This document shows, piece after piece, positions 37,392-40,342 of a stretch of 64,000 nt of DNA. Numbering within the stretch: position 1 is the first letter of the stretch; each line of letters begins with the position of its first letter. Location of the stretch: assembly GCA_964019425.1 (NCBI GenBank), contig OZ025799.1:930001-994000 (forward strand). The letters run 5' to 3'. The DNA comes from Flectonema sp. DT1601 (Eukaryota). Both the position numbers and the translations under genes were made by a program. The notes beneath the pieces are model-generated. The model saw nothing but the letters and a program-made list of their open reading frames with translations. It made no database searches and was not told the DNA's origin.

Positions 37392-40342
37392 ATATATATT
37401 TTTTTTTTCTGCCTCTCTCTTAATTCCGTTCGTTTCTTTGAAACAAAAATTCATTTGAATATTATTCCTTGGTCAGCATCTGTCATTGTCGCCCTTTGGG
37501 CCTGTTAAAAAAAAAAAAAAATAAAAAGAAAGCGAGATTTTCGCTATTGGGGGGTCCAATAATTCCATTTTCGCTATTCAGTAAAAGAATTTTTTTTTTT
37601 TTCGCTGTTCACTGAATATGATAATTTTTTTTCTCCATTCAGTAACAAAAAAAAAAAAATTTTCGCTGTTCATGAAAAAAAGTGGATCAAGCCCTACGCA
37701 CCCTAGACAGGGAATCGGCAAAGATAGGACTGTGCCTCAGGCCCGCCAAGTGCCAGACGTATGTCTTACAGGAGAGCCCAGTCGAGCTCCCGTCCGGCTG
37801 GGGATTGGAAGGCATGGGGAGCCCCCTCTTTAACGGGGACTTCCTAGGTTCACCTTTCGGATCGATCACACATGTCCGGAACTTCGTAACGCAGAAGGTC
37901 AGCAAGCTACAGGACAAGGCCCGTCTGATCGCAGGCATGGAAGACAGACAGGCAGCCCTAGTCCTACTTAGACAGTGCTCGGGCTTTTGCGAAGTCACAC
38001 ACCTGATGCGGAGCTGCTCATTCGATATAACGGAACAGCTGCAGATGGTAGATGAAGTCGTCAGGGGGACTGCCTCAGAGGTACTAGGACAGGGTCTGGA
38101 AGGCTTGAGATGGATCCAGGCGCAGCTTCCCACGCGGATGGGCGGACTCGGCCTCCGTTCATGCACAAAACACAGGAATGCCGCCCTTTTAGGTTCGCTA
38201 GGACTAGTAAAGGATACCTGCGTAAGCCTTTGGCGAGACTACAAATGTGACCTAAGTTCGCAGATCCAAGAAACGCTGAACAAAGAACTGCCGGATAGCC
38301 TAAAGCTGGAGGGCACATATAACCCACAACGCTTCACCTCAGCCAGGCTAGACCAGGTCATACGGGACAAGCTGCTGGAGGAAGCGACGCCAACCGACAA
38401 GAACGATGCCGAAAGCGAGTGCGTGGCTACAGTGCCCGGATGAGGAGTGCTACATAGGCTCCGACATATTCCGTATCGCCTGCGGACTACGACTCGGGAC
38501 AGCTTTGTTCTCAGAAGATGAGGCCTGCCGTGCTTGCAAAAAAACACAGGATGCGTACGGATACCATGCCTCTGTCTGCATCGACGGCGGGGATATCCAC
38601 CGCAGACACGATAAAGTGAGGGAAGAATTTATCGGCATCTGTCGTTCGGCGGGCTTGGCAACGATGAGGGAACCCAAATACCTCGTCGGATACAACAAGC
38701 AGCGACCTGCAGACTGGTACTGCCCGCAAGGATTGAGCGAGGGAGTCGGACGGGCGTTTGACGTCACGATCGTCAACCCAGGGGCATCCAGGAACTACAA
38801 CAAGCCGGGCCAAGCAGCCAGTGATGCGGAAGCCGCAAAGTCAGGCAAGTACTCGACCTTATGTGCAAAGTACGGAATAAATTTTTCCCCGATTGCCCTT
38901 GAAGTCTACGGAGGTTTAGGCCCACAAGCAGTGAGGACGCTAAGCCGACTGTCGCAGCTGCGCGCCCTTGTCACGACGTTACCCCTACGAGAAGTTGCAG
39001 GCCTGTATGCCAGGAGGGTCTCAACCCAATTGGTGGTCTGCACTGCAGAAGCCCTCAGAGCAAGAGGAGCATCGCTCACACACCAAGCGACGTCATCCGC
39101 AAGCAAGCTGCACACGCCACATACGCCGTCGGCACCGAACACATCCGATGACGGAGTTGAATTACCAGGTGAGATTTGGACTGTTAGCTTTTGGCTAAGG
39201 CCCTCCCTGAAAAGCAAGAACAAAAAAACTACTCACACCTGAAGAAAACATACACAAAGAACACACTGTAAGCTGTGTGTGTATTTTGTGTTTGTCACAA
39301 CAGGAGAGAAAAGAAAGAATGTCAAGGTTGGTCACCTTGCCTATCAACGCACAACATTGGTGGTCTCTACTAGACCCTGAGTGATCCCACTGGATCTCTC
39401 ATCGTTCATAGTACCTATGTGAAGTTATAAAATCAAAGGTAAACTATGAACTACAAATGACTTAGCCTGTTATTATAATGCCACAGGCAGGCCCTGCATT
39501 CAGCAACTATCCAGCAGTGCTTGGATGTCCTGATCTTCTTCTAAAAAAAAGAAAGAAAAACAAAACTGTAGCTGGGATCACTCAGGATCAACAGACTACC
39601 AATGCTACCTGTTGTACTTGCTCACTATGGGGGGTGATGCCAAACACCCAGAAGTACTAAACTGCTTTCCTTCTTGCTGCCCAGGAGTTTCTGACCAGAA
39701 CTAATAGAAAATAAAAAGTAGATGGGAAACAATAAAAAGTAAAATGCATGCATATAACTGAAGTTAAACAAGACAAATGAAGTAACAGACCAGAACAGAA
39801 AGAGAATAAAAAGAAAAGATATAGGCAAGAGTGATTGTAATAGAAGATTACAAATAAAAAAATGCAAGTATCAACACATGATCAAGAGGAGTTGAATTAC
39901 CAGGTGAGATTTGGACTGTTAGCTTTTGGCTAAGGCCCTCCCTGAAGAGCAAGAACAAAAAAACTACTCACACCTGAAGAAAACATACACAAAGAACACA
40001 CTGTAAGCTGTGTGTGTATTTTGTGTTTGTCACAACAGGAGAGAAAAGAAAGAATGTCAAGGTTGGTCACCTTGCCTATCAACGCACAACATTGGTGGTC
40101 TCTACTAGACCCTGAGTGATCCCACTGGATCTCTCATCGTTCATAGTACCTATGTGAAGTTATAAAATCAAAGGTAAACTATGAACTACAAATGACTTAG
40201 CCTGTTATTATAATGCCACAGGCAGGCCCTGCATTCAGCAACTATCCAGCAGTGCTAGGATGTCCTGATCTTCTTCTAAAAAAAAGAAAGAAAAACAAAA
40301 CTGTAGCTGGGATCACTCAGGATCAACAGACTACCAATGCTA

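What the first reader, a model, noticed from the sequence alone, without database searches (positions are those of the whole stretch)
39383..39469. Conserved structured core in A and B: candidate novel ribozyme or processing motif
Seen: B (39383-39469, 40118-40203, 53697-53786 rc) and A (35991-36073, 54665-54747, 60805-60887) share three parts. These are a GATCC-N4-GGATC hairpin, a long stem of entirely different sequence (GTTCATAGT..ACCT/AGGT..ACTATGAAC versus GAGCTG.CATTGCCA/TGGCGATG.CAGCTC) whose loop starts with invariant TGTGAAGTTA, and an invariant GACTTAGCCTG. The loop could pseudoknot with CTTCAC or GACTT. Invariant single-stranded nucleotides on swapped stems are typical of catalytic or protein-binding RNA. 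I could not fit it to hammerhead, HDV, twister, pistol or hatchet consensus by eye. The ribozyme role is inference.
Basis: partly seen in the sequence, partly recalled or inferred. Interest (0 to 1): 0.78.

Follow-up and report, generated by a model that had tools for sequence, protein, structure and literature searches.

The report
Folded RNA core of protist retroposons
Two very different families of non-coding jumping DNA in a marine protist share one predicted RNA fold that fits no known RNA family; it is likely a protein-binding handle used when the element is copied, with a smaller chance that it is a new kind of self-cutting RNA.

Summary
The motif is real: six copies in two families (A, B). 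Its main stem keeps 13 of 13 comparable pairs, 8 changed on both sides. It is larger than first reported. A and B are colinear, non-coding mobile elements of a likely diplonemid. They share one fixed end, have ragged other ends, leave no target duplication, and B forms partial tandems, like non-autonomous Penelope-type or R2-type retroposons. The core is one of four shared blocks and lies 244-566 nt from the fixed end. No Rfam family or hammerhead, hairpin, twister, pistol or HDV pattern fits, but Rfam also missed a twister-like fold in a neighbouring LINE, so that negative is weak. No homologue was found outside the window. Cleavage is unshown: all six copies keep the core whole, and only 1 of 7 ragged ends falls in it. 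Best reading: a protein-binding RNA domain needed for retroposition (0.45). A new self-cleaving class remains open (0.28).

The parts
39383..39469 (-). Core as reported, copy B1 (strand likely minus; about 60:40)
39404..39451 (-). P4: 13-bp stem with the invariant 10-nt loop block (39418-39427)
39459..39488 (-). Invariant 11-nt block (39459-39469) and helix P3 closing with 39484-39488
39387..39517 (-). Proposed helix P1 (39389-39396 region with 39509-39517); 9 of 9 pairs standard on minus, 7 of 9 on plus; low predicted probability in B
39373..39589 (-). Whole domain closed by helix P0 in B1 (B3: 53577-53794 +; A2: 54652-54846 -)
39632..39649 (-). Shared 5-bp hairpin (block 1) whose loop can pair 6 bp with the invariant linker; also 41055, 53517, 54891 and about 55013-55030
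39178..39203 (-). Shared terminal stem-loop; its outer stem ends about 12 nt from the fixed end. Also 39913, 52608, 53964, 54209, 57278, 60349
39153..41408 (-). B1 (39153-39887) plus B2 (39888-41408, interrupted by element C at 40344-41033): one partial-tandem insertion in an RLE non-LTR reading frame, 1 bp lost, no duplication
52420..54014 (+). B3: 239-nt partial copy plus full 1356-nt unit; core at 53697-53786; ragged end at 52420 falls inside the invariant GATCCAGT block
57272..57982 (+). B4: fragment without core, spans the native unit junction, abuts a 5'-truncated RLE element
35666..36186 (-). A1, core at 35991-36073; lacks the fixed end
54182..55175 (-). A2, longest A copy (994 nt), core at 54665-54747, no duplication
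60323..60986 (-). A3, core at 60805-60887, inserted in an RLE reading frame with no duplication and two extra G at the fixed end
40118..40204 (-). Core in B2
53310..53318 (+). Site X of the B unit: B1 ends and B4 begins here; hypervariable among B copies

Best explanation
The motif is the central part of a predicted multi-helix RNA domain shared by two diverged families of non-coding mobile elements, and it likely serves as a protein-binding handle that lets the RNA be picked up and copied by a reverse transcriptase borrowed from another element. Shown: the repeats are mobile (empty sites found), have one fixed and one ragged end, leave no duplication, and keep four colinear blocks with compensatory changes. 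Copying starts about 12 nt past the terminal stem-loop and stops or jumps at variable points, giving partial tandems. The invariant 10-nt loop on a 13-15 bp stalk is the protein contact, and the invariant linker docks on the block-1 hairpin loop. The partner enzyme is not identified: a Penelope-like or an R2-like (RLE) element.
For: Mobility: 4 of 4 insertions with a recoverable empty site show no duplication and 0-3 bp lost. 5 of 7 copies share the fixed end. B3 and B2+B1 are partial tandems, the layout described for Penelope-like elements and their non-autonomous forms (PMC8557442, PMC3846280, passages). Copy number: a spurious ORF elsewhere in the B unit has 70 sequence variants, the exact one on 71 contigs. 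Homology: A and B share block 1, the core, a second hairpin and the terminal stem-loop in order; block 1 lies 44 and 42 nt from P0. Selection on structure: P4 8 of 13 pairs changed on both sides, terminal inner stem 2 of 5, none broken. Against catalysis in the core: 6 of 6 copies were copied through it whole. The invariant loop sits 13-15 bp from the junction, and no known catalytic core is present. A Penelope-like enzyme binds its RNA upstream of an internal start site and does not need ribozyme cleavage (PMC11167929, main text). Strand: end polarity; the same terminal fold in A and B on this strand; loop-linker pairing 6 of 6 in all three variants versus 6, 5 and 4 of 6 mirrored (110 of 20000 in simulation, post hoc).
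Against: No binding, expression or structure-probing data. Only two independent families, so no covariation statistic. Strand is unsettled. An unbiased G-U versus A-C count was weak (A 1:1, B 8:3, expected ratio 1.4-1.7). That strand is A-rich with 1-2 runs of five T against 8-12, and A2 ends there in an A-rich tail. B2 and A3 carry extra G at the fixed end, which would suit a capped 5' end (recalled). P1 has predicted probability 0.64 in A but 0.04 in B. The loop of block 1 has 4 possible partners in A and 13 in B. No Penelope-like protein was seen in the window.
Confidence: 0.45

Rival explanations
1. The domain is a self-cleaving ribozyme of an undescribed class that frees monomers from tandem or polycistronic transcripts, taking the place of the hammerhead in Penelope-like elements and retrozymes. 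The candidate cut is inside the invariant GATCCAGT block at 52419/52420-equivalent positions.
For: It lies within the terminal repeat region, where Penelope-like elements carry their hammerhead (PMC4209133, PMC8557442, passages). No known ribozyme was found elsewhere in A or B. 29 nt are invariant around a multi-helix junction, with a possible long-range pseudoknot. A neighbouring LINE keeps a twister-like fold intact in 2 of 2 copies, so intact copies do not exclude a ribozyme. Diplonemid genes are likely co-transcribed in groups (PMC10161547, abstract).
Against: Only 1 of 7 ragged ends falls in the core, and no copy starts at the matching downstream position. The invariant loop is far from the junction. 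The recurrent B break points X and Y are 390-520 nt from the core, and a helix joining X to the core ranked 47 of 1123 windows and cost 21 kcal/mol. No assay.
Confidence: 0.28
2. The signal acts as DNA: an internal promoter or protein site, or a single-strand hairpin of a rolling-circle (Helitron-like) element rather than a retroposon.
For: GCTAAG occurs five times on one strand of B, and one block is shared with the tRNA-like element C. A stem-loop about 12 nt from a fixed end, no duplication and tandems also fit rolling-circle elements (recalled). Helitron proteins are reported in Diplonema (PMC10161547, passage).
Against: A promoter would not keep 13 bp of pairing through 8 double changes. 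Junctions show 1-3 bp losses and extra letters. Only 1 of 4 targets is A|T. Pol III read-through is blocked by T runs on one strand.
Confidence: 0.12
3. The domain is a nuclease-resistant knot that protects one end of the RNA and so sets where copies stop.
For: A3 ends exactly at the outer boundary of P0 and A1 14 nt beyond it, and A3 is closer in sequence to the long copy A2 than to A1. B4's outer end is at the boundary of the terminal stem-loop.
Against: None of the 4 B copies ends at the P0 boundary. Reverse-transcriptase pausing at helices would give a similar pattern.
Confidence: 0.1
4. Chance or neutral remnant of common ancestry.
For: Only two families; several helices were recognised by eye.
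Against: 1 of 2000 shuffles for the sequence chain, 34 of 4000 for the stem, and 8 double-sided changes.
Confidence: 0.05

Closest known systems
Non-autonomous Penelope-like elements (MRC1 and other Chlamys derivatives; PMC8557442, passages)
   Same: Non-coding, fixed and ragged ends, partial head-to-tail tandems forming a pseudo-LTR, insertions that can lack a target duplication (PMC3846280), structured RNA near the fixed end.
   Different: No hammerhead; no Penelope-like protein seen in the window; no inverted copy or 30-40 bp tail seen; no known partner to compare ends with.
Non-LTR retrozymes (bioRxiv 10.64898/2026.07.22.740005, abstract, introduction and part of methods)
   Same: Non-coding tandem-prone units with a conserved structured RNA in each unit.
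   Different: They are defined by a type I hammerhead; A has no hammerhead core on either strand. The B unit is 1356 nt, and A shows no tandem here.
R2 SIDEs and template-jump chimeras (PMC3414825, passages)
   Same: Non-Pol III parasites of RLE elements with conserved RNA structure; untemplated letters at junctions; B4 and A1 sit directly 5' of RLE fragments in the same sense.
   Different: No HDV-like ribozyme, no shared 3' tail with the RLE elements found, no fixed target. Both chimeras can also be read as RLE insertions into older copies.
Pistol ribozyme (PMC4604425, passages)
   Same: A short hairpin whose loop could pair with a junction strand next to a longer stem.
   Different: The 2-nt junction closing P2 and P3 is not formed in both families; descriptor and Rfam give no match.

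Membership tests
Any Rfam 15 family | Covariance-model match | tested here: not met
   0 at gathering score in the window; only chance-level hits at E<=10 over A2 and the B unit. Weak test: it also missed the twister-like fold at 34934-35017.
Hammerhead (all permutations, PLE variants) | CUGANGA core or its compensated forms, plus GAAA and three stems | tested here: not met
   0 core strands in A on either strand and 0 in either domain; 0 type I or III descriptor hits in 33801-64000.
Hairpin ribozyme | Invariant G+1, G8, A22-A23-A24-C25 and A38 in two internal loops (PMC8216279) | tested here: not met
   An AGUC strand faces a UGAR strand on the minus reading, but the flanking helices do not pair (read from sequence) and no loop-B strand lies in either domain on that strand.
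Twister | P1/L1, P2/L2, P4/L4 and two pseudoknots (PMC11662667) | tested here: not met
   0 hits in the A or B core, both strands, permuted forms included; the same descriptor found 2 of 2 LINE copies; one weak hit elsewhere in B at background level (8 in 33.8 kb).
HDV-like ribozyme | Nested double pseudoknot starting at G, with catalytic C in J4/2 | tested here: not met
   0 hits in A or B with a recalled descriptor that had no positive control; Rfam negative.
Pistol | P1-loop pseudoknot to the P2/P3 junction and a strict 2-nt cleavage junction | tested here: not met
   Loop-to-linker pairing is possible, but 0 descriptor hits in A or B (no positive control).
Twister-sister, hatchet, VS, glmS | Class consensus | tested here: inconclusive
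   Only the Rfam scans bear on these; no descriptor was run.
Self-cleaving ribozyme (any) | Site-specific cleavage without protein | not testable with these tools
   Needs a bench assay.
Non-autonomous Penelope-like element | Partial tandem with fixed and ragged ends | tested here: met
   B3 and B2+B1; A shows the end polarity only.
Non-autonomous Penelope-like element | End similarity to an autonomous PLE in the same genome | not testable with these tools
   No whole genome held; no PLE domain among 54 ORF scans of the window.
Retrozyme | Hammerhead in each unit | tested here: not met
SINE or SIDE of an RLE non-LTR element | 3' tail shared with the partner | tested here: inconclusive
   Only a 14-nt internal match between B and the LINE tail; the true 3' ends of both RLE families are uncertain or outside the window.
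tRNA-derived SINE | tRNA-like head with Pol III boxes | tested here: not met
   No tRNA match in A or B; 8-12 runs of five T on the likely RNA strand.
Helitron | Precise insertion between A and T (recalled) | tested here: not met
   1 of 4 targets fits; small losses and extra letters at the others.

The most novel reading that the evidence does not exclude
A and B are retrozyme-like elements of diplonemids in which an undescribed, pseudoknotted self-cleaving ribozyme class replaces the hammerhead, in a genome whose main LINE also carries a twister in its 3' tail.
Probability: 0.28. Interest if true: 0.88.

Novelty: new variant of a known kind. Interest (0 to 1): 0.56.

Why it matters
New self-cleaving ribozyme classes are rare, and most came from bacterial or phage sequence; one from a eukaryotic retroposon would add a catalytic fold. 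If the domain does not cut, it still marks the RNA signals that a non-coding parasite must keep to borrow a reverse transcriptase, in a lineage whose mobile elements are barely curated (PMC10161547 says a rigorous identification is still to be done). Two families that differ almost everywhere else give ready-made compensatory mutants, so the test is cheap.

Tried and rejected
Of these 124 matches none had a stem of 13 or more pairs, and none had both flanking blocks; a recurring group of them is an unrelated palindromic repeat. Earlier-findings look-ups by place, by sequence and one by words gave nothing. An inversion joining B1 and B4 was rejected because B1+B2 lie cleanly inside one reading frame. 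A long-range helix bringing site X to the core was rejected. A hand count of 13 G-U against 2 A-C was set aside as biased; the unbiased count was weak. A degenerate type III hammerhead reading of A fails at core positions and is absent in B. tRNA, Pol III box, U2/U6, 7SL and splice-site likenesses were recalled leads only; Rfam did not support them. MAFFT did not put the stems in register, so no covariance model was built. Cluster look-ups of spurious ORFs: 3 of 10 found, 0 of 10, none for A, so A's copy number is unknown. Expression and read ends could not be examined. The C-terminal extension of the LINE had 14 relatives and no annotation.

Full report
Observation. The two invariant blocks occur six times each, at the stated places. 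Families A and B share three ordered exact blocks of 11, 10 and 8 nt; 1 of 2000 shuffles matched that chain. The 10-nt block sits in the loop of a 13-15 bp stem in every copy, against 34 of 4000 background positions. Of 13 stem pairs in register, 8 change on both sides, 1 on one side, 4 stay and none breaks. Copies within a family are 95-100% identical, so the independent sample is two.

Host and setting. The window is eukaryotic. All but one of the 21 non-self relatives of a host protein are EukProt or ENA entries, several labelled Sspe and Hpha; I recall these as diplonemids, so the host is likely one. No whole genome is held. From 33.8 kb on, the window is a nest of mobile elements: two RLE-type non-LTR families (label from recalled motifs; Pfam shows RVT_1 and zf-RVT), a satellite, and several non-coding repeats.

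A and B are mobile elements. Empty sites could be recovered for four insertions. A2 and B3 lie in repeat D. A3 lies in one RLE frame (relative P0099). B1+B2 lie together in the other (relative P0158). None has a target duplication; 0-3 bp are lost, and single or double extra letters occur. Five of seven copies share one fixed end; the other ends lie 664, 677 and 994 nt (A) or 704, 834 and 1595 nt (B) away. B3 is a 239-nt partial copy plus a full 1356-nt unit, and B4 shows the same unit junction. A spurious ORF in the B unit, 380-570 nt from the core, has 70 variants in the protein collection, the exact one on 71 contigs (15 of 70 listed). B is therefore likely a dispersed family of many copies, though this does not show that each holds the core.

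A and B are homologous. Read towards the fixed end, both have four blocks in order: a 5-bp hairpin (block 1) 44 and 42 nt before a closing helix P0, the core, a second hairpin, and a terminal stem-loop whose outer stem ends about 12 nt before the fixed end. The terminal inner stem has 2 of 5 double changes. Whole-element alignment is only modestly above shuffles (239 against a maximum of 218 in 30). The core is thus one conserved module among several.

Larger fold. On the strand running towards the fixed end (minus at 39383-39469), P0 encloses P1, a small hairpin, P3, the invariant linker, the long stem P4 and a purine linker. P0 and P4 are predicted at 0.9 or more, except the inner part of P4 in B3 (0.69). 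P1 is 0.64 in A and 0.04 in B; P3 is 0.04 and 0.77. The junction model therefore rests on conservation more than on energy. The loop of block 1 can form 6 of 6 pairs with the invariant linker in all three variants on this strand, and 6, 5 and 4 of 6 on the other. A simulation gave 110 of 20000, but the test was post hoc and other partners exist (4 in A, 13 in B).

Strand. For the minus reading: the usual polarity of target-primed copying (fixed 3' end, ragged 5' end), the shared terminal fold, P1 at 9 of 9 against 7 of 9, the loop-linker pairing, and two copies joined in the same sense to RLE fragments. I put it at 60:40.

Known classes. Rfam gives nothing. Hammerhead cores are absent from A and from both domains. 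Hairpin, twister, pistol and HDV-like patterns fail; the last two descriptors were recalled and had no positive control. The twister descriptor did find a fold in the 3' tail of the abundant RLE family in 2 of 2 copies, which Rfam missed in the copy scanned by E-value. The Rfam negative is therefore weak for variants with long inserts.

Does it cut? There is no direct evidence. All six cores were copied whole, but so were both twister-like folds, and a Penelope-like element uses uncut RNA (PMC11167929, parts 1-2 of 4 read). One of seven ragged ends, B3's, falls in an invariant block; with a 90-nt core in a 1.0-1.4 kb element that is not rare. The recurrent B break points lie elsewhere. At site X (53310/53311) B1 ends and B4 begins, and 13 of 14 listed ORF variants differ in the 9 nt beside it. 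At site Y (53180/53181) B2 and two ORF variants break. X could be an RNA end, a pause site or a nuclease target; a helix tying it to the core was not supported. A1 and A3 end within 14 nt of the P0 boundary.

Mechanism. Most likely (0.45) the domain is a protein-binding handle for retroposition: an invariant loop on a stalk of conserved length, in an RNA that also keeps a terminal stem-loop at the copying start. Mobility and conservation are shown; RNA strand, binding and partner are inferred. Rivals: new ribozyme 0.28, DNA-level signal 0.12, nuclease block 0.10, neutral 0.05.

Literature. Passages were read of PMC8557442, PMC3846280, PMC4209133, PMC6765202, PMC3414825, PMC10085705, PMC8216279, PMC8501958, PMC11662667, PMC4604425 and PMC10161547; part 1 of 5 of bioRxiv 10.64898/2026.07.22.740005. 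Searches listed no paper on ribozymes or non-autonomous retroposons of diplonemids (listings only). A search of 7 supplementary files of PMC10161547 found none of six terms, not even Helitron, so its main supplement may not have been searchable; it could bear on novelty.

Verdict. A real, unclassified, covarying RNA-like domain in an apparently undescribed family of non-coding retroposons. The element type is a variant of known kinds; the ribozyme claim is open and cheap to test. Interest 0.56.

Noticed in passing
window 34934-35017 (+) and 63896-63989 (+): Twister-like fold with both pseudoknots and a long P5 insert in the 3' tail of the abundant RLE non-LTR family. It fits a descriptor in 2 of 2 copies with pairing-compatible changes; missed by Rfam. 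A 3' position is unusual: the Schistosoma cases are 5' (PMC8501958).
   Followed up: partly
window 57983-64000; fragments 34282-35090 and 35187-35665: RLE non-LTR family (235 cluster members) whose ORF continues about 550 aa past the endonuclease into a region with no Pfam match and 14 unannotated relatives.
   Followed up: partly
window 40344-41033 and 59412-60080: Element C: two 74% identical non-coding insertions without duplication, carrying a tRNA-like segment near one end (Rfam tRNA 19.4 bits) and a 20-nt block shared with B.
   Followed up: partly
window 53310-53318 and 53180: Sites X and Y of B: recurrent break points; X is hypervariable among copies and lies in a long predicted rod. 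Cause unexplained.
   Followed up: partly
window 49949-51185: Element with about 57-bp inverted ends holding a tRNA-like segment (about 50055-50135) and an LSU rRNA fragment on minus (E 2e-55) that begins near what I recall as the R2 target site.
   Followed up: partly
window 42000-51800 and 55660-56920: AT-rich (21-23% GC) satellite of about 257-260 bp in both orientations.
   Followed up: no
window 33870-34280: Broken frame resembling the phospholipase-like domain of Polinton-type elements (recalled; no Pfam hit).
   Followed up: no
window 52735-52895: Repeated small hairpins in B that each contain GCTAAG, the hexamer also found in the core linker and in the block shared with C.
   Followed up: no
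window 52061-52419, 54015-54183, 55176-55262, 56917-57271: Repeat D, hit by both A2 and B3; nature unknown.
   Followed up: no
loci L005, L006, L016-L018 and others: A palindromic repeat that recurs in many metagenome contigs matches the search pattern but has a different structure; unrelated to this motif.
   Followed up: no
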